DNA from: a virus
Taxonomy: Duplodnaviria; Heunggongvirae; Uroviricota; Caudoviricetes
Strand: one strand, 5' to 3'
Virus record (IMG/VR): IMGVR_UViG_3300029079_000072
Coordinates: 1-12,923 of that record
Length of the DNA stretch: 12,923 nucleotides
In this document: piece by piece, positions 1-8,405 of the stretch
Layout: every line of letters starts with the position of its first letter
How positions within the stretch are numbered: the stretch's first letter is position 1
Notes under the pieces: model-generated
Seen by the model: only the letters and a program-made list of their open reading frames with translations
The model's database searches: none
What the model was told of the DNA's origin: nothing
Translations under genes and position numbers: made by a program

Positions 1-267
1 TTACTCTGCAGGTGAAGTCGGCCACTCAATATCAGGTGCAGTTGATGTATCAACACGATTCAACAATACCCGATATTTATTCCATGCCTCCAGCAACGAT
101 CTTTCTTCCGCCGTTGCGATTTCCAGATCTACAGCATCCTGCAGTGGCGCAATATACTCACTGAATTCCTGGATGTGGAACTGTGTGGTGACGGTCTTCC
201 AGTCATTCGGCTCCTGCTGTATCGAAGCATACCAGGCTATTTCAATATCGCTATGCTGCGGCAGCAT
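1..267 (-). CDS. Short tail fiber assembly-like protein (88 aa, Tfa C-terminal domain only)
   Basis: The C-terminal ~50 aa ([46 protein letters not shown]) is near-identical to the C-terminus of the Tfa at 1047..1631 and to lambda Tfa as I recall it. ATG at 265..267 is preceded by AAGGGG; stop TAA at 1..3. Resembles the short tfaX-type gene of DLP12-like prophages (from memory). Confidence 0.7.
20..163. repeat. Direct repeat copy A (tfa 3' region), about 144 bp, paired with 1069..1212
   Basis: Aligned by eye against 1069..1212: about 16 mismatches in 144 positions, same orientation. Similarity ends abruptly at 163/1212. Confidence 0.75.
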
Positions 268-323
268 TTAACCCCTTGTAATTCATCGCCATAATTGATT
301 TAATTCACAAATAAAACTATAAC

Positions 324-992
324 ATGGTGAAATCAATGAAAAAAAACACAGATGATGGGGCTAAAATTTACACACCACTTACCCTAAAGCTTTATGACTG
401 GTGGGTTTTGGGAGTATCAAATCGGCTTGCATGGGGATGTCCTACAAAGGAACACCTTCTTCCACACTTTCTGGAACATGTAGGTAACAACCATCTGGAT
501 ATTGGTGTTGGAACTGGGTTTTACCTTACTCACGTACCTGAGAGTAGTCTGATATCTTTAATGGATTTGAACGAAGCTAGCCTGAACGCGGCATCTACAA
601 GGGCTGGGGAATCAAAAATTAAACATAAAATTAGCCATGATGTTTTTGAACCTTATCCCGCGGCGTTACATGGTCAATTTGATTCCATTTCCATGTTTTA
701 CCTTCTTCACTGCCTGCCTGGAAATATATCTACAAAAAGCTGTGTAATACGCAATGCGGCGCAGGCCTTAACTGACGATGGAACTCTATACGGAGCCACA
801 ATTCTTGGCGATGGAGTTGTGCACAATAGCTTCGGTCAAAAACTGATGCGCATTTACAATCAGAAAGGCATCTTTTCAAACACAAAAGATTCCGAAGAAG
901 GCTTAACACATATACTCTCAGAGCATTTCGAGAATGTTAAAACCAAGGTTCAAGGTACTGTAGTAATGTTTTCCGCTTCAGGGAAAAAATAG
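324..992 (+). CDS. Class I SAM-dependent methyltransferase (possibly YbcY-like)
   Basis: 222-aa ORF with a glycine-rich SAM-binding motif I (LDIGVGTGFY) and downstream acidic/hydrophobic motifs typical of Rossmann-fold methyltransferases. Alternative start at ATG 336 is preceded by GGTGA. The gene looks clearly more AT-rich than the flanking phage DNA (by eye, not computed). It lies on the opposite strand between two tfa-type genes, as ybcY does in DLP12 (from memory). Confidence 0.75.
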   Translation: MVKSMKKNTDDGAKIYTPLTLKLYDWWVLGVSNRLAWGCPTKEHLLPHFLEHVGNNHLDIGVGTGFYLTHVPESSLISLMDLNEASLNAASTRAGESKIKHKISHDVFEPYPAALHGQFDSISMFYLLHCLPGNISTKSCVIRNAAQALTDDGTLYGATILGDGVVHNSFGQKLMRIYNQKGIFSNTKDSEEGLTHILSEHFENVKTKVQGTVVMFSASGKK

Positions 993-999
993 CATCCAA

Positions 1000-1032
1000 C
1001 CGCAGCACGTTCTTGCTTAAGACGTGCTGCGG
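1000..1032. terminator. Hairpin between convergent methyltransferase and tfa genes (possible bidirectional terminator)
   Basis: Perfect 11-bp inverted repeat CCGCAGCACGT / ACGTGCTGCGG with an 11-nt loop. On the minus strand a T-run follows a few nt after the stem (plus-strand A-run at 984..989). Confidence 0.45.
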
Positions 1033-1046
1033 CATAATCCCAATGA

Positions 1047-1631
1047 TTACTCCCTGACAGGGTTCGTAGGCCACTCAATATCAGGTGCAGTTGATGTATC
1101 AACACGGTTCAGCAACACCCGATACTTCTTCCAGGCTTCCAGCAATGAGGTTTCTTCCTCCGTTGCAATTTCCAGATCTGCAGCATCCTGAAGCGGCGCA
1201 ATATGCTCACTGGCTACCTGCATCAGGTTGTTTTTTGTTTCTTCCGCCTCCCGGATCCGGAACAGTTTTTCTGCTTCCGTATCCTTCACCCAGGCTGTGC
1301 CGTTCCACTTCTGAAACTCCCCTTCCGGCGATAACCAGGTAACATTTTCCGGTAACGGACCGAGTTCAGAAATAAATAACGCGTCGCCGGAAGCCACGTC
1401 ATAAACCGTTTTACCCCGATGATCTTCAACGAGATGCCACGATGACTCATCACTGTTGAAAACAGCCACGAAGCCAGCCGGAATATCTGGCGGTGCAATA
1501 TCGGTACTGTTTGCTGGCAGACCTGTATGAGGCGGAATATATGCATCACCTTCACCAATAAATTCATTAGTTCCGGACAACAGATTATAAATTTTTATGG
1601 TCCGTGGTTGTTCACTCATTCTGAATGCCAT
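1047..1631 (-). CDS. tfa: Tail fiber assembly protein Tfa (lambda-type, 194 aa)
   Basis: Translation [18 protein letters not shown]...[46 protein letters not shown] matches lambda Tfa almost residue for residue from memory. The ATG overlaps the stf stop (TAATG). Confidence 0.9.
1069..1212. repeat. Direct repeat copy B (tfa 3' region), paired with 20..163
   Basis: See copy A; same orientation, roughly 89% identical by eye. Confidence 0.75.
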
Positions 1632-4600
1632 TATGCAAGCCTCACAATATAGTTAAATGCGATGTTTTTGACGGTGTTTTCCGCGTTACCAGCAGCGTTA
1701 ACGGTGATGGTGTGTCCATGTGAACCAATCGCAACGGAGTGCGTATGAGCACCAATACCGACAGTATGTGCATGTGCACCAGCATTTGCTGCAGTACCAG
1801 ACAGCGAGTGGGTATGAGCACCTGCTGACTGTGTCTGAATACGTTGATAATACGATCTACTGGAAGAAGTCTCCGGGCTTACTTGATACTGTGAATCCTT
1901 GACATAAGTGAACCCACCGCCATCATAAAATGCTAACGCAGAACCGCCGCCTCCCGGCCAACGAATACCATTACCATGAGTATGAGCACCGGCAGACCCC
2001 GTAGAGCCACTCAGACTGTGCGTATGCGACCCGGTGTTATTCGTGGATTTAGTGCCGTAATCAAACGACGATGTGGTTTTCGTCCCCAAATCCGTACTGG
2101 ATGCGCTGGCGCTGTGGGTGTGCGATTTTATGCCGTCCCGTTCCTGAGACAATACGGCCCGGCCACTGGCGGGTTTGCCCTTGATTGTCCAGCCGCGCAT
2201 ATCTGGAATAACACCTGAAGGATAGGCAATAGCCAGTTTCGGATATGCTGCCTTATCAAACGTCTGCCCCTGCATGATTGCATAACCTGCAGGTGGTGTA
2301 TCTGATGGCCACGGCAGCGGAACACCTGGCGGAAACGCTTCAATATTTGCCGAGCCGTCAAATTTTACGCCGTTAATTGTCCTTGCAGTTTGCAATTTGG
2401 TTGCTGTGCTTGCATTACCCGATAAAGATCCAGTGATACCACCACTCGCGTTTAATTTAGTTGCAATTGTAACATTGCCAGTATGGTTACTAATTATAAA
2501 CGGCCTTAAGCTATTGTGCGTACCAAGACTGTTACCCGAATCTGTCAACATAAAATATGTGTTTGATCCATCATTTCGGATAAAGAATCCATAGTTGCCA
2601 TAGGCAATACGCAGACCATTTGCTGACCTTGAAATAACCTCACCAGCAGCAGTTAAACCACCTGAAAGAGTCCCTCCAGTTAATGCCAATGCCCCAATAT
2701 TTGAAGGGGTCAATGTGATATTTGCACTACCATCAAATGACACACCGTTAATCGTTCTGGCTGCCTGAAGTTTCGTGGCGGTCGCAGCATTACCTGTAGT
2801 GTTTTGATTACCGGTAGCGTTGACTCCAGGCAAGTTGATATCTGCCGATCCATCAAATGCCACGCCCCCAATCTTACGTGCTGTCTTGATCTTGGTCGCA
2901 GTATCTGCGTTTCCGGTCAAATTACCAGTAACACTACCACCAACTTTTAGTCCATTACCGATGGACACCAACCCTGATCTTAAGTTTATAGAGAATGGTC
3001 TTAATGAACCGATGTCTCCATTTTCCCCCTCCCCTTCATTAGTCGGAATAAGATGAAGATAATCTTCGGAACGCCTAAAAATAAGGCCAAAGGCTTGGTT
3101 GAATATTCGAAGAGCATTTATCGTGCTGATTTTTAACTGCCCTCCCATTGTGTCGCCAGTTTTTTGAACTGAACTATCTTTAACAGTTTTAACTGCCTTT
3201 GGCGTTGCCGCCAGCTTTTCACTGGTGCTGTTTGTTGCACTGCTGAGCTGTACTATCCCCTTTTTCGTCGTGCTCGCATCCTCAAGCCCCACGGCGGATG
3301 CAATATCCTCTGCCCGTTTTGCCGCTGTTTCGGCACGCGTTGCCGCGGATTCAGCAGCAACTTTGCTCTGAGATGCCGCCGTCGCACTGCCTGCCGCCTC
3401 TGATGCTTTCGTTGTTGCTGTCGTGGCACTACCTTTCGCTGCTGACGCTTGTCTGGTCGCCTCATCTTTTGAAGCAGACGCAGATGATGCCGATGACGCC
3501 GCTGAACTGGCTGACGATGCGGCTGCCGCCTTAGAGGAAGCAGCATTGTCTGCTGAAGTCTTTGCATTTGTTTCAGAGGTTTTTGCTGCAGAAGCAGACC
3601 TCGCTGCTGCAGTGGCTTGCTCAGTGGCTTTGCCAGCCTTCGTTGTGGCTGTTGAAGCGGATGATGCGGCGCTTTCTGCCGATTTTCCGGCGGCGGTGGC
3701 ACTGGCTGAGGCCTGCCCGGCACTTGTTGACGCGGCACTGGCAGATAATGCAGCCGCTGTTTTTGAACCTGCCGCAGCTGAGGCGCTCTGTCCCGCTGCT
3801 GTTTCAGAAGACTTAGCGTTCGTCTCGGACGTTTTTGCCGCCTTCGCGGAATTTCCTGCCGCCGTTGCCGAGGAAGCTGCACTACTGGCACTTGATGATG
3901 CATTCGTTTCTGAAGATTTCGCTGCCTCTTTTGAGGCCGCCGCACCCCGTGCCGAGGTGGCAGCTTCTGACGCTTTCGTGGTCGCTGTGGATGCAGAAGT
4001 GGCTGCCGATTTTTGTGATGCTGCGGCATTCGTTTCTGACGTTTTCGCGGCACTGGCGCTGGTAGCTGCCGCGCTTTTTGATGACTCTGCAGCAGCAGCA
4101 CTTTTTGCTGCTTCACGGGCCTTTGTCGATGCCGTTCCTGCGCTGGAAGACGCTGACTGAGCCGACGACGCGGCCTGTCCGGCTGACGTGCTGGCGGCAC
4201 GTGCTGAGGCTGCAGCATCGGTTGCATGAGTTGCCGCCTCGCTGGCTGATGCACTGGCATCGCTGGCTGATTTTTTCGCGGCTGCCGTATTCTGTGCAAC
4301 CGCGGAGGCGTTACGTGACACCTCTTCCACCATCTGCTCAAAGCGGCGCAGTGCCTCCGGCATGACATCATCTTCCGTCATGGCACCGAGAAAATCATTC
4401 AGCGTACCTGGTCTGGAACCTTCATAGACGGTAATGGTCCCGGCATGTGAAGGCGGAAAACCTTCAACCAGCAGGGTGACGCTGTACTGGCCATGCTCAA
4501 CATCCATGCTGTAACGTCCGGCTTCATCCGGATTTTCAGAGGCCACCGTGTTCACCACCACCGTGCTGCTGGTTCGTCTGGCCTTCAGCACAATGGTGCA

Positions 4601-4657
4601 GTTCTGTACTGGTTTTCCTGTGCCATCTTTAAGCACGCCAGAAATTTTTACTGTCAT
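1631..4657 (-). CDS. stf: Side tail fiber protein Stf (1008 aa)
   Basis: N-terminus [28 protein letters not shown] and C-terminus ...[42 protein letters not shown] match lambdoid Stf proteins such as Rac StfR as recalled. A long Ala/Ser/Thr-rich low-complexity stretch is followed by repeated tail-fibre repeat units ([23 protein letters not shown]) and a His-rich HxH C-terminal region. Confidence 0.9.
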
Positions 4658-5475: not shown

Positions 5476-7857
5476 TCAGCTAATCGTGATGCCTGCAGTG
5501 GCTTTCTTCATCACAACAACCAGCAAATCGCTGATACTTGCTGTGGGATACCAGCCATTTACCCACCATGCTGATACAGAAAACTCCAGCGTCATGTGGC
5601 CGCGACCAGCAGGCATATCAATAACACCACTGTAAACCAGCGTATTATCCAGCGCGGTACGGTTATAAATTTCAGCACCGTTTTTCCGTACTATCAGGCG
5701 GCATGACGAATAAATATCGTTATTCTCCCGCTCATGTCTGGCACCGCTGAATGCCACCGCCGGAATAACAATTTGCCGGTCAAACGGCTGATCGTCATAA
5801 ACCCTGACGGTAATGGTCCCTGATGGCCACCTCTCCGGTGCACGGGAGTCACGGGGGAAAGCCTTACCCACTGTTTTAACGAGATCGCCTTCAATCTGGT
5901 TTGCAGACAGTTTCCCTCTGATGACACAGTTCTCGTTAATGGTGACATTATTGAGCGTGCCGGTATTCGCCGTGATGGCTCCACTGATATCCGCATTGCG
6001 GGCTGTCAGCCTGCCATCCGGCGTCAGGGAAAACGTAGGAGGATTGCCGGATGACGTGATGCTCACCGCAAACAGTCGCTTCAGGAACACGTCGTTCATG
6101 AACAGCTGATTCCCCTGCGCCACAAACAGCGGCGTGGTGTTGCCATTCTCCGGGGTAATCATCGCGATACGGTCCGCCTGCAGCAGAATACTGCTCAGCG
6201 TCTGACCATCAACATCCTCAATCCCCGCACCAATCCCGGCCACATAGGGAATACCGTTTTTTGTTTTCTGCACCTTCAGCATATACATGGCATTCAGCTC
6301 ATTGCGCGTGTCTGACTGAACCCGCTGGATTTGCTGTATGGTCACGGCCTGGTCACCCAGTTTTTTATCCGTGGTCGAGGTAATTTCACTCCCTTTTTTA
6401 TCCACGTACTGGCGGACCTGTGCTATCTGTCGGGCATTTTCTGACTGCCCCTGGCTGACAGTCTGTGAGATTTCACTGCTCACCCGGTCCACTTTCTGGC
6501 TCACCTGCGCGATGGCCAGTGTCTGGTCCTCATTCTTTTTCGCAACCAGCTGCGTGAGGCTGTTTTCCGCCTCCCCGATTTTCCGGGTCACTTCTGCGAT
6601 ATCCGTGTCCATCCGCTGACGGATGTCTTCTTCCAGTTGCGTGACCTCCGTACGCAGCGCTGAAGCATCAATGCGCTCTTTCAGTGCCTGGCCCAGAAGC
6701 GTCTCATCTATCAGCCCCCGGAAAATTTCCAGATACCCTTCACCATCATTGCTGGGCTGCCCGCTGGCTTCCACAAAAGCAGATTTTCCCACCAGGTTGA
6801 CGCTTCGCACGTAAAACCAGAAATCCGTCCCCGGCTTAATCCGGCTCCCCTGGACAGTCCACTGACTGCCGGTCCCCAGATAACGGGCAGATTTTTCCAC
6901 CTGTGCCGTGTTCGTGATGCGTTTTTCTGAGAACCAGAATTCAAACTGTACCGTCGGGTCATACACCGCAAGACGCGGGACCGCCGTTATCTGAAAATAC
7001 CCCGGCGTCAGCTCAATGGTGGCGGGTTTTGCAGGCGCGTTAATCCGGAAGGTGGTGGTCGCAGGTTCGCCCTGCTGGCCGTAGCTGTTAATGGCCCGCA
7101 CCGTCAGGGTGTATTCCCCCAGTGGCAGGCCGCTGAAACGGTGCTCCGTGTCTGCGGTGATGGCGGTGGTCACCAGTCTGGCATCCGTTCCCTTACCACT
7201 GGTCAGGCGCAGACTGAAGCGCACGCCCTTCACCACCCGCGGCGTGTCCCATTTAGCCTGCGCCAGATACTGGCCGTCAGCTGCGCTCACCTCCACCGTC
7301 AGGTGCTGCACTGCCGGTGGGATAACGCTGTTCAGGGTGCCTGACTGCGGCTCAAAGCGGGCCCCGTTATCCACGATGGCTTCTTTTTCAGGTACGTGCT
7401 GCACCGCCGTGATGGCAAAGGTGCCGTCCGTGTTTTCCCGGATGGAGACACAGCGGAACAGGCGACGACGCAGTGACGGCAGGGAGAGTCCCCACACACC
7501 GTATGTCTCCACACCATCCGGCAGGGTGCTGACCTGTATCCGGTCAGGCGCGGGGTGTGCGGTGATGGCCACGCTCGCCGGCTTACCGCTGCCGTTAATC
7601 AGATTAACAGTGGCCGTGCCGGTCTCCGGCAGTGTCACCTCCCGGTCCAGCGTCAGGGTACGGCTGGCGGCATCGATGGACAGGACACGTCCGCCGGTCA
7701 TGGTCCCGGCATAGTCGTTATCACAGATTTCAATGATGTCACCGGGTGTGTGACGCAGCCCCTGTGACCCGAGCGTGAAATCCACCGTCTGCGTTTCCAG
7801 CAGTTCGGTCTTTATCACCCACAGCCCGGCACGGTGGGCCTGACCGCGGCTGGTACA
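5476..7857 (-). pseudogene. J: Tail tip / host specificity protein J, N-terminally truncated remnant (C-terminal ~790 codons)
   Basis: Translation from the in-frame stretch [27 protein letters not shown]...[11 protein letters not shown]... parallels the lambda J region starting around [25 protein letters not shown] (from memory). The frame is closed by TGA at 7858..7860 exactly where J homology should continue upstream. There is no ATG start; the track's start is a GTG that is an internal Val codon. Confidence 0.85.
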
Positions 7858-7924
7858 TCAGGGGCTGTAATGCTGTTGTGACAGCACTCATCATATTATT
7901 CAGTTGTTGCTCTGATATATTCAT
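7856..7924 (-). pseudogene. Terminase large subunit (gpA-like) 5' fragment, about 23 codons
   Basis: ATG at 7922..7924 overlaps the 3' end of the Nu1 gene and encodes MNISEQQLNNMM..., resembling the lambda gpA start MNISNSQVNRL. The frame then runs out of frame into J sequence, so only the first ~20-25 codons look native. Confidence 0.5.
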
Positions 7925-8405
7925 CGAGTAAATCCGGTAATTTATCCCCCGCCCGCGCACACTGATTTGCCCCCTTCGCAATAAGGGTTTTCAGATGGTC
8001 AAGATGGCGCGGTGTTAAATCAGGAAACTGTCGCTGCATGGATAAAGGGATGGAATCAAGCGTACTGGATAACGCCATTGCCAGCTTGCTGAGGGCAAAA
8101 ATACAGAACCCGGTATCAATAAGTTTTCCTTTTGACACCTCATTTTTTAACTGCTGTGTAACAGCCTGTTCTGCTGTCAGTTCCCATCTGGCAATAAGCA
8201 ATTTCTCCTCATAGTCGTCTTCGCTATCGCCATCAGGCACATCGTTTTTACTTCTTCTCAGATACGATATGTAAAAATCGCGCCAGGCATCCAGATCCAG
8301 TTGCCCTCGCTTATTCGATATCGGGGCACCCGGCAATTTCTGCAATCTGCGAAGCTGGCGATCGGTCAGACTTAAATGCCTGGCAACTTCAGTCTGCGTA
8401 GCCAC
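7896..8405 (-). CDS. nu1: Terminase small subunit (Nu1-like, 169 aa)
   Basis: The C-terminal half (...GFCIFALSKLAMALSSTLDSIPLSMQRQFPDLTPRHLDHLKTLIAKGAN...LPDLLDEYI) parallels lambda Nu1 (...AFCTFVLSRIAGEIASILDGLPLSVQRRFPELENRHVDFLKRDII...LLSEYI) from memory. It lies directly beside the cos site. Start is GTG at 8403..8405 preceded by AGGTGAGGA, with an in-frame stop just upstream. Confidence 0.85.
   Translation of the reverse strand: MATQTEVARHLSLTDRQLRRLQKLPGAPISNKRGQLDLDAWRDFYISYLRRSKNDVPDGDSEDDYEEKLLIARWELTAEQAVTQQLKNEVSKGKLIDTGFCIFALSKLAMALSSTLDSIPLSMQRQFPDLTPRHLDHLKTLIAKGANQCARAGDKLPDLLDEYIRATTE

What the first reader, a model, noticed from the sequence alone, without database searches (positions are those of the whole stretch)
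1..1631. AT-rich methyltransferase cassette bracketed by direct repeats of tfa 3' ends
A plus-strand SAM-dependent methyltransferase gene, visibly more AT-rich than its surroundings, is inserted between a full Tfa and a short Tfa-like gene. Both tfa genes are on the minus strand and share a roughly 144-bp, ~89% identical 3' segment in direct orientation. This differs from invertible tail-fibre switches, which use inverted repeats; direct repeats instead allow deletion or duplication of the cassette by homologous recombination. The methyltransferase substrate is unknown.
Basis: seen in the sequence. Interest (0 to 1): 0.5.

Follow-up and report, generated by a model that had tools for sequence, protein, structure and literature searches.

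The report
Prophage methyltransferase moron beside tfa relic
This is the intact version of the E. coli K-12 tfaD-ybcY-tfaX locus: a small AT-rich methyltransferase gene carried as prophage cargo next to a leftover end of an old tail-fibre chaperone gene, common in E. coli and ordinary.

Summary
A 222-codon class I SAM methyltransferase ORF (324-992, +; GC 41% against 51% for the window) lies between a full tfa (1047-1631, -) and an 88-codon ORF (1-267, -). Only the last 57 codons of that ORF are Tfa-like. The two tfa 3' ends are direct repeats (17-174 and 1066-1223; 137/158 identical).

It is not a new cassette. The segment is collinear (96.7%) with tfaD-ybcY-tfaX of the K-12 cryptic prophage DLP12. 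The methyltransferase plus relic is found in 3,425 of 5,426 complete E. coli genomes.

The unit conserved across contexts is 238-1032: promoter region, ORF and terminator hairpin, a classic moron. It also occurs without the flanking repeats.

The short tfa is a relic. The conserved tfa 3' end acts as a homologous-recombination linker. The window's relic is chimeric, with the switch inside a 38-nt perfect block. Forty-four genomes carry an empty site at the same potB junction. The closest of the two examined, TUM9757, matches the predicted repeat recombinant at 98.9%. No tandem duplication was seen.

The enzyme resembles small-molecule and lipid methyltransferases, not DNA methyltransferases. 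Its substrate remains unknown. Interest is low.

The parts
1..174 (-). 3' relic of a tail-fibre assembly gene (last 57 codons plus stop). Direct-repeat copy 1 is 17-174. The relic is chimeric: 1-19 and the flank beyond are of the potB-site phage type, and 58-174 are of the tfaX type.
   Evidence: Pfam Caudo_TAP positions 75-131 only. PGAP pseudogene 'missing N-terminus'. Alignment A3. Repeat family D1.
1..267 (-). 88-codon ORF (phrog_2341) that runs from non-Tfa sequence into the tfa relic. Probably not a functional chaperone.
   Evidence: The same ATG is used in K-12 TfaX (61 aa) and ev243 (101 aa), but the C-termini differ.
20..57 (.). 38-nt block perfectly identical to 1069-1106. This is the inferred crossover interval.
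175..237. Filler of unclear origin between the relic and the moron. PGAP (+) a frameshifted DinI-family fragment in another strain.
   Evidence: PGAP. No Pfam hit. 181-297 is 90% identical to DNA downstream of the stf gene of phage Ayreon.
268..323 (+). AT-rich (26.8% GC) promoter region of the methyltransferase. Candidate sigma-70 sites are TTAACC-16-CATAAT (268-295) and TTGATT-17-TATAAC (295-323).
   Evidence: Consensus scan, not above shuffle expectation. Sequence read directly. The second motif is the one listed for K-12 ybcY, with an H-NS mark, in genomic SELEX (PMC3946193).
324..992 (+). YbcY-family class I SAM-dependent methyltransferase (phrog_2132), intact. The likely true start is ATG 336.
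1000..1032 (.). Strong hairpin (11-bp perfect GC-rich stem) between the convergent methyltransferase and tfa genes. Likely terminator, and the right edge of the conserved moron unit.
   Evidence: dG -23.9 kcal/mol, z -5.6 on the + strand, z -4.0 on the - strand. Kati and L009 homology ends at 1032. The simple terminator scan missed it because no T-run follows directly.
1047..1631 (-). Full-length tail-fibre assembly gene tfa (194 aa). Direct-repeat copy 2 is 1066-1223. Its start overlaps the stf stop.
   Evidence: Caudo_TAP E 2e-44. phrog_105..
1631..4657 (-). Side tail fibre gene stf (1008 aa), upstream partner of tfa in the late operon.
   Evidence: PHROG tail fibre families. PGAP.

Best explanation
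The region is the right end of a defective lambdoid prophage inserted just after potB. It is the intact counterpart of the K-12 DLP12 locus tfaD-ybcY-tfaX.

The methyltransferase is a moron. It is a self-contained AT-rich transcription unit running antisense to the late operon: promoter region 268-323, ORF 336/324-992, terminator hairpin 1000-1032. It was captured from an enterobacterial family of stand-alone chromosomal genes. It encodes a small-molecule or lipid-type class I SAM methyltransferase of unknown substrate.

The short 'tfa' is the 3' relic of an older tfa gene. The last ~55 codons of tfa genes are conserved at the DNA level. They therefore serve as homologous-recombination linkers through which fibre modules and downstream cargo are exchanged between lambdoid phages.

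In this lineage a DLP12-type block (tfa end, hairpin, ybcY, filler, tfaX part) was joined to a potB-site phage by a crossover within the 38-nt identical block. This left two tfa 3' ends in direct orientation. The same repeats can delete the block again.

Shown: the anatomy, the homologies, the chimeric relic, the empty alleles, and the class of the methyltransferase fold.

Inferred: the order of events (gain first, deletions possible later), promoter and terminator activity, and expression in the lysogen.
For: Identity with the K-12 locus:
- K-12 DLP12 is collinear with window 21-1485 at 96.7% and is annotated tfaD, ybcY (pseudogene) and tfaX.

Frequency:
- Window 1-1046 is covered at 80% or more in 3,425 of 5,426 genomes. 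Window 1-1700 is covered in 1,499.

Conserved core 238-1032 in different surroundings:
- ev243 keeps 43-1167 next to a non-Tfa fibre module, so its right-hand tfa is also reduced to a relic.
- Kati and L009 have stf-tfa-pin-ydfK, then the methyltransferase, then the relic.
- F11 has ompT directly next to the methyltransferase.

Repeated crossovers in the tfa 3' end:
- The relics of the window, K-12 and ev243 share the tfaX-type sequence. They switch to different terminal sequences and flanks at three different points, about window positions 58, 95 and 43.

Empty site:
- Forty-four genomes have the potB flank followed by an intact tfa in one BLAST piece.
- TUM9757 is 98.9% identical to the predicted recombinant, with the switch between diagnostic sites 19 and 58.

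Moron features:
- Composition and hairpin.
- An RpoD promoter and H-NS mark in the K-12 ybcY/tfaX spacer (PMC3946193).

Origin and fold:
- Homologues at 56-68% identity in Enterobacter and Salmonella are stand-alone chromosomal genes in unrelated, non-phage contexts.
- The AF2 model has pLDDT 88. The best PDB fold matches are PE N-methyltransferase, JHAMT, NodS, PfPMT, Coq5 and natural-product methyltransferases.
- Profile search against PDB sequences gives JHAMT.
Against: - The direction of the event at the potB site is not resolved by sequence. The empty alleles fit equally well as ancestral or as repeat-mediated deletions.
- The argument for 'gain first' is logical rather than phylogenetic. 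It rests on positions 1-19 plus the flank belonging to an intact tfa in the empty alleles.
- Only two empty alleles were examined base by base. E2348/69 shows a mixed pattern.
- The consensus promoter scan is not above shuffle expectation. The hairpin lacks a canonical T-tract on the + strand.
- No expression or activity data exist for the intact gene.
- phrog_2341 shows that the 88-aa ORF recurs at full length in phages, so a function for it cannot be excluded.
Confidence: 0.8

Rival explanations
1. One reading: the methyltransferase is a cassette whose flanking direct repeats make it an unstable element, prone to deletion or amplification. Its presence varies through ongoing intrachromosomal homologous recombination.
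For: The direct repeats are real, with a 38-nt perfect block. Empty alleles with breakpoints inside the repeat exist.
Against: - The repeats are 87% identical, and outside the 38-nt block the perfect runs are 12 nt or shorter. By general knowledge of RecA substrates, recombination should be inefficient.
- Roughly 320 genomes have the filled allele at potB, against 44 empty.
- No empty allele is identical to the predicted product of this window. The best has 10 differences in 885 nt.
- No duplication junction was found among the top hits.
- The conserved methyltransferase unit exists without the repeats.
Confidence: 0.25
2. The 88-aa ORF is a functional short Tfa-like protein. It could be a C-terminal-domain-only chaperone or a regulator of fibre assembly, kept together with the methyltransferase as a two-gene module.
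For: The ORF is open and matches phrog_2341 over its full 88 residues. The relic and the methyltransferase co-occur in most contexts. SELEX lists a tfaX-side promoter in K-12.
Against: - Only 57 residues are Tfa-like, and the N-terminal 30 have no family hit.
- The C-termini differ between alleles (61, 88 and 101 aa), precisely in the part that is most conserved in real Tfa proteins.
- PGAP calls it a pseudogene.
- F11-type loci keep the methyltransferase without it.
- All copies are near-identical, so recurrence of the ORF is not evidence of selection.
Confidence: 0.07
3. The methyltransferase is a phage DNA methyltransferase. It would act as an orphan or anti-restriction enzyme that protects phage DNA or alters the host methylome.
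For: Phages often carry orphan DNA methyltransferases (general knowledge).
Against: - There is no hit to any DNA-methyltransferase Pfam family. Only Methyltransf_11/12/23/25/31 and MTS match.
- PDB sequence and fold neighbours are small-molecule and lipid enzymes.
- There is no significant PADLOC hit.
- Related prophages carry a separate, annotated DNA methyltransferase near the Q gene.
- Homologues are isolated chromosomal genes.
Confidence: 0.03

Closest known systems
E. coli K-12 cryptic prophage DLP12 locus tfaD (b0561) - ybcY (b0562, pseudogene) - tfaX (b0563)
   Same: Same genes, order and strands. Collinear with window 21-1485 at 96.7% identity, including the direct tfa 3' repeats and the hairpin.
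   Different: Here ybcY is intact (222 aa), whereas K-12 has a pseudogene. The terminal ~95 nt of the relic and the downstream flank differ (potB junction here, appY in K-12). tfa here is full length with stf upstream, whereas K-12 tfaD is fused to nohD/aaaD remnants.
Morons of lambdoid phages (Juhala et al. 2000; from general knowledge): extra transcription units with their own promoter and terminator and atypical composition, inserted between conserved phage genes. Cargo regions downstream of tail-fibre genes, such as the exchangeable effector loci of O157 prophages, are a related example.
   Same: AT-rich unit with a promoter-like spacer and a terminator hairpin. It runs antisense to the late operon, sits at the tail-fibre end of the prophage, and is absent from otherwise similar prophages at the same site.
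   Different: The product is an uncharacterised methyltransferase, not a known conversion or virulence factor. Promoter and terminator activity were not measured for this allele.
Mosaic evolution of tail-fibre and tfa genes by recombination at conserved segments (Haggard-Ljungquist 1992 and Sandmeier 1992/1994; from general knowledge), and the modular 'linker' model of lambdoid phage evolution
   Same: The conserved tfa 3' end is the site of crossovers that join different fibre modules and different downstream regions. Three different junction points are seen in three contexts.
   Different: Here the exchange leaves stacked tfa 3' relics in direct orientation around a cargo gene.
Invertible tail-fibre switches (Mu Gin, P1 Cin, e14 Pin)
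   Same: They involve stf/tfa genes and a second tfa copy. Relatives (Kati, 2011C-4251) do have a Pin-family recombinase between tfa and the methyltransferase.
   Different: The repeats here are direct, not inverted. There is no recombinase in the window, no alternative stf C-terminal segment, and no flanking inverted repeat.
Small-molecule and lipid class I SAM methyltransferases (bacterial PmtA phosphatidylethanolamine N-methyltransferase, JHAMT, UbiG/Coq5, NodS)
   Same: Rossmann fold with GxGxG motif I. Best Foldseek matches have E about 1e-11 to 1e-9 and TM 0.53-0.66. Weak sequence hits occur.
   Different: Identity is only 12-21%. All NCBIfam scores are far below their cut-offs. No substrate can be assigned.

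Membership tests
YbcY / phrog_2132 class I SAM-dependent methyltransferase | Full-length match to the family profile and orthology with K-12 ybcY | tested here: met
   phrog_2132 E 4e-157, residues 5-222 on profile positions 1-218. DNA is collinear with K-12 ybcY at 96.7%. Identical to WP_000240999.1.
YbcY / phrog_2132 class I SAM-dependent methyltransferase | Class I Rossmann fold with SAM-binding motif I (GxGxG) and an acidic residue after strand 2 | tested here: met
   Invariant D59-G61-G63-T64-G65 and D81 in 27 homologues. AF2 model pLDDT 88 with alternating strand/helix core. Fold matches to SAM methyltransferases.
Moron (lambdoid phage accessory transcription unit) | Present in some and absent from other otherwise similar phages at the same position | tested here: met
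   Forty-four genomes have the potB flank followed directly by tfa with no methyltransferase.
Moron (lambdoid phage accessory transcription unit) | Base composition different from the flanking phage genes | tested here: met
   GC 41.1% and GC3 35.9%, against 48-55% in neighbouring genes. It lies in the lowest ~1% of windows.
Moron (lambdoid phage accessory transcription unit) | Own promoter upstream and terminator downstream | tested here: inconclusive
   Two sigma-70-like sites in the 27% GC spacer. SELEX supports a promoter in the K-12 ybcY/tfaX spacer. The hairpin has z -5.6 but no T-tract on the + strand. No transcript data exist for this allele.
Moron (lambdoid phage accessory transcription unit) | Expressed from the repressed prophage | not testable with these tools
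   Needs RNA-seq or TSS mapping of a lysogen.
DNA methyltransferase (orphan or restriction-modification) | Match to a DNA methyltransferase family (N6_Mtase, N6_N4_Mtase, MethyltransfD12, DNA_methylase) with a target-recognition domain | tested here: not met
   Only generic small-molecule methyltransferase families match. Fold neighbours are small-molecule and lipid enzymes.
Caudo_TAP tail-fibre assembly protein (lambda Tfa family), applied to the 88-aa ORF | Coverage of the whole Caudo_TAP domain | tested here: not met
   Only profile positions 75-131 of 131 are matched, by residues 31-87. PGAP marks it as partial, 'missing N-terminus'. The 194-aa protein covers positions 1-130.
Invertible tail-fibre switch (Gin/Cin/Pin type) | Inverted repeats flanking the segment, an adjacent serine invertase, and an oppositely oriented alternative stf-C/tfa pair | tested here: not met
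   The repeats are direct. The only inverted repeat is 24 nt at 79% and unrelated. No recombinase ORF is present in the window.
Transposable or site-specific mobile cassette | Transposase or integrase, terminal inverted repeats or att sites, and short target-site duplications | tested here: not met
   There is no such gene between the repeats. The 158-nt repeats are homologous gene ends. The conserved unit 238-1032 excludes them.

The most novel reading that the evidence does not exclude
The YbcY-family enzyme could be a lysogenic-conversion methyltransferase acting on a host membrane lipid or small metabolite. A PmtA-like N-methylation of phosphatidylethanolamine, or detoxifying methylation of a small molecule, are examples. 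Its carriage by prophages in about two thirds of E. coli genomes would then reflect a selected host phenotype. The tfa 3' linker would be the vehicle that spreads it between lambdoid phages.
Probability: 0.12. Interest if true: 0.55.

Novelty: already known. Interest (0 to 1): 0.18.

Why it matters
It matters little beyond annotation. The analysis shows that the apparent cassette is the intact allele of the K-12 pseudogene ybcY. It sits in a very common prophage cargo position, and the short 'tfa' genes (tfaX-like) are recombination scars.

Two points are modestly useful. First, this is a clean example of the conserved tfa 3' end acting as a crossover linker. Filled and empty alleles occur at one chromosomal site, and the crossover maps to a 38-nt block. 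Second, an uncharacterised small-molecule-type methyltransferase family (phrog_2132) is carried by prophages in 63% or more of complete E. coli genomes and still has no known substrate.

Tried and rejected
- **Chance repeat:** rejected. Both copies are Caudo_TAP C-termini.
- **DNA methyltransferase or defence system:** no DNA-methyltransferase family hit. PADLOC gives only mad2 at E 0.009 with no matched stretch.
- **DinI fragment in 169-248:** PGAP annotates one in strain 167. Pfam finds nothing for that translation or for the N-terminus of the ORF, even at E up to 10. Left unresolved.
- **Origin of 175-297:** the only extra hit is phage Ayreon, 90% identity, downstream of its stf gene. It was not informative.
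- **Tandem duplication:** a synthetic junction query (700-1106 joined to 58-540) returned only two-piece matches to the normal single-copy layout among the best 15 hits. This is a limited test, because the tool joins pieces and lists few rows.
- **First deletion-junction query (882 nt):** uninformative, because the tool joined the two pieces of undeleted loci. It was redesigned at 601 nt.
- **Literature:** searches for ybcY and tfaX gave only SELEX and promoter listings and ompT-context remarks. There are no functional data.
- **Substrate assignment:** NCBIfam hits (CpaM, RquA, PmtA) score 16-18 bits against cut-offs of 175-390. Foldseek TM is 0.66 or less. No substrate can be assigned.
- **Gene-neighbourhood inference:** Enterobacter and Salmonella homologues share no conserved neighbours.
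Full report
**Observation.**
The window carries three ORFs in the region of the finding. They are an 88-codon ORF on the minus strand (1-267), a 222-codon ORF on the plus strand (324-992), and a 194-codon tfa on the minus strand (1047-1631). The tfa start overlaps the stop of a 1008-codon side tail fibre gene (1631-4657).

Pfam gives a full Caudo_TAP match for the 194-aa protein. For the 88-aa ORF it matches only profile positions 75-131, using residues 31-87. The 222-aa protein hits the generic families Methyltransf_12/23/25/11.

The two tfa 3' ends are direct repeats: 17-174 against 1066-1223, 137/158 identical. BLAST reports 147 nt at 88.4%. The longest perfect run is 38 nt (20-57 / 1069-1106).

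The methyltransferase has 41.1% GC and 35.9% GC3. The figures are 48.2% for tfa, 51.9% for stf and 51.2% for the window. The upstream spacer 268-323 is 26.8% GC. About 1% of equal-sized windows are as AT-rich.

**Where it sits.**
Window 1-1700 is 100% identical to many complete E. coli chromosomes. In these genomes it is the end of a lambdoid prophage (J-lom-stf-tfa on the minus strand) lying 231 bp after potB.

In the window itself the J gene is cut at 7857 and fused to the terminase-small-subunit and lysis region. A lysozyme gene is followed directly by a DUF968 fragment. The prophage is therefore defective.

**It is the K-12 ybcY locus.**
The DLP12 cryptic prophage of MG1655 is annotated tfaD, then ybcY (a pseudogene on the opposite strand), then tfaX, then appY and ompT. 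It aligns collinearly with window 21-1485 at 96.7%.

Window 1-1046 (relic plus methyltransferase) is covered at 80% or more in 3,425 of 5,426 complete genomes. The whole of 1-1700 is covered in 1,499. Fourteen sequenced temperate coliphages carry the gene at full length, and one short record holds a fragment. It belongs to phrog_2132, annotated 'unknown function'.

**What the conserved unit is.**
I compared several contexts.
- Phage ev243 matches window 43-1167. It keeps the left relic, the methyltransferase and only the last ~40 codons of the right-hand tfa, next to a fibre module with no Tfa.
- Phage Kati and strain 2011C-4251 match 21/43-1032. They then have YnaM/ydfK and a Pin-family recombinase before tfa resumes at 1069.
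- UPEC F11 matches from 238 onward, with ompT directly to the left.

The common core is thus 238-1032: the AT-rich spacer, the ORF, and a hairpin at 1000-1032. The hairpin has dG -23.9 kcal/mol and z -5.6, and also folds on the minus strand.

The spacer contains TTAACC-16-CATAAT at 268-295 and TTGATT-17-TATAAC at 295-323. The second motif is the one listed for K-12 ybcY, together with an H-NS mark, in the genomic SELEX catalogue of constitutive RpoD promoters (PMC3946193).

Homologues and the PHROG profile start at residue 5. ATG 336, preceded by GGTGA, is therefore the likely start. Composition, an independent promoter and terminator, and variable presence together fit the classic description of a moron.

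**The repeats are recombination scars and linkers.**
Alignment A3 shows that the relics of the window, K-12 (tfaX) and ev243 share one 'tfaX-type' sequence in their upstream part. Each switches to a different terminal sequence and a different downstream flank. The switch points are about window positions 58, 95 and 43 respectively. These are three independent crossovers inside the conserved tfa 3' end.

A 601-nt query was designed so that undeleted loci could not be joined by the search tool. It found 44 genomes in which the potB-side flank is followed directly by an intact tfa with no methyltransferase. They include E2348/69 and O104:H4 strains.

In TUM9757 the stop-proximal 19 nt and the flank are of the window's short-copy type. 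From diagnostic site 58 on, 19 of 20 sites carry the full-copy base, and site 79 matches neither copy. The allele is 98.9% identical over 885 nt to the product predicted for a crossover within the 38-nt block.

Positions 1-19 plus the flank are part of an intact gene in the empty alleles. I therefore infer that 'intact tfa + flank' was the ancestral state at this site. On this view the DLP12-type block was brought in by homologous recombination, and later repeat-mediated deletions remain possible. This ordering is an inference, and sequence alone does not settle it.

Roughly 320 genomes are filled at this site against 44 empty. A query for a tandem-duplication junction gave only rearranged two-piece matches among the 15 best-ranked hits.

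**The short 'gene'.**
Only 57 of its 88 codons are Tfa-like. The N-terminal 30 have no family hit. PGAP annotates 1-174 as a partial pseudogene. In one strain PGAP annotates 169-248 (+) as a DinI-family fragment, which I could not confirm.

The same ATG opens ORFs of 61 aa (K-12), 88 aa (here, phrog_2341) and 101 aa (ev243). These have different C-termini. I regard it as a relic. A function is unlikely but not excluded.

**The enzyme.**
There is no DNA-methyltransferase family hit. Sequence matches to solved structures are weak, to JHAMT and UbiG.

An AF2 model built on 27 homologues has pLDDT 88. Its best PDB fold matches are bacterial phosphatidylethanolamine N-methyltransferase, JHAMT, NodS, phosphoethanolamine methyltransferase, Coq5 and natural-product methyltransferases. 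TM-scores are 0.53-0.66 and identities 12-21%. NCBIfam scores are far below their cut-offs, and there is no meaningful PADLOC hit.

Homologues at 56-68% identity occur across Enterobacterales, Aeromonas and Shewanella. In Enterobacter and Salmonella they are stand-alone chromosomal genes with unrelated neighbours. The Enterobacter gene is also AT-rich, at 39% against 50.5% for its locus.

The enzyme is therefore most likely a small-molecule or lipid methyltransferase of unknown substrate, captured by phages. The literature held no functional data.

**Verdict.**

The element is not a novel cassette. It is the already annotated, very common ybcY moron with a tfa relic. It is a textbook product of modular exchange at the tail-fibre end of lambdoid prophages. 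Interest is low. The only open question of note is the substrate of this widespread prophage-borne methyltransferase.

Noticed in passing
window 5476-7857 and 7858-8405: The tail-tip gene J is truncated. Only its C-terminal 794 codons remain, fused at 7857/7858 to a terminase small-subunit (Nu1) region. All head and most tail genes are deleted, so the prophage is defective, much like DLP12.
   Followed up: partly
window 10957-12269: A phage lysozyme gene is followed directly by an ORF whose residues 160-207 match the start of DUF968. In strain DP051 these two genes are about 6 kb apart, separated by holin, tRNAs, a DNA methyltransferase, Q and RusA. This suggests a second internal deletion. 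Window identity to DP051 ends at about 11654.
   Followed up: partly
window 1631-4657 (stf), especially 3200-4300 and 1700-2000: The middle of the side tail fibre is a long Ala/Ser-rich low-complexity stretch with GC up to 62%. It creates long spurious ORFs in other frames, for example 3253-4371 (-) and 3423-4160 (+). The C-terminus carries repeated HxH motifs (GAHTHS), seen as DNA repeats at 1737-1753, 1806-1822 and 1974-1990.
   Followed up: no
window 937-1074 (-): PGAP annotates a 45-aa 'hypothetical protein' (WP_001309429.1). It overlaps the methyltransferase 3' end, spans the terminator hairpin and runs into the tfa 3' end. It is probably a spurious call.
   Followed up: no
window 181-297; L015 (phage Ayreon) 3001-3117: The filler and promoter region upstream of the methyltransferase is 90% identical to DNA just downstream of the side tail fibre gene of phage Ayreon, which lacks the methyltransferase. 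This hints that the segment predates the methyltransferase at this position.
   Followed up: partly
L003 (phage ev243) 6724-6844: In ev243 the right-hand tfa is also reduced to a 3' relic of about 40 codons next to an unrelated fibre module. The methyltransferase there is flanked by two tfa relics. This suggests that successive fibre-module replacements stack tfa 3' ends.
   Followed up: partly
L016 (strain DP051) 15409-16458, outside the window: The related, less deleted prophage carries a separate annotated DNA methyltransferase next to tRNA genes and the Q antiterminator. It is distinct from the YbcY-type enzyme.
   Followed up: no
L010 6001-6657 (Enterobacter), L013 6001-6663 (Salmonella): Chromosomal homologues of the methyltransferase sit alone in unrelated neighbourhoods: after a liv-type ABC transporter and DUF4156 in Enterobacter, and between a PMT_2 glycosyltransferase and cytochrome b561 near hrpA in Salmonella. 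The Enterobacter copy is also AT-rich, suggesting repeated horizontal acquisition of this family.
   Followed up: partly
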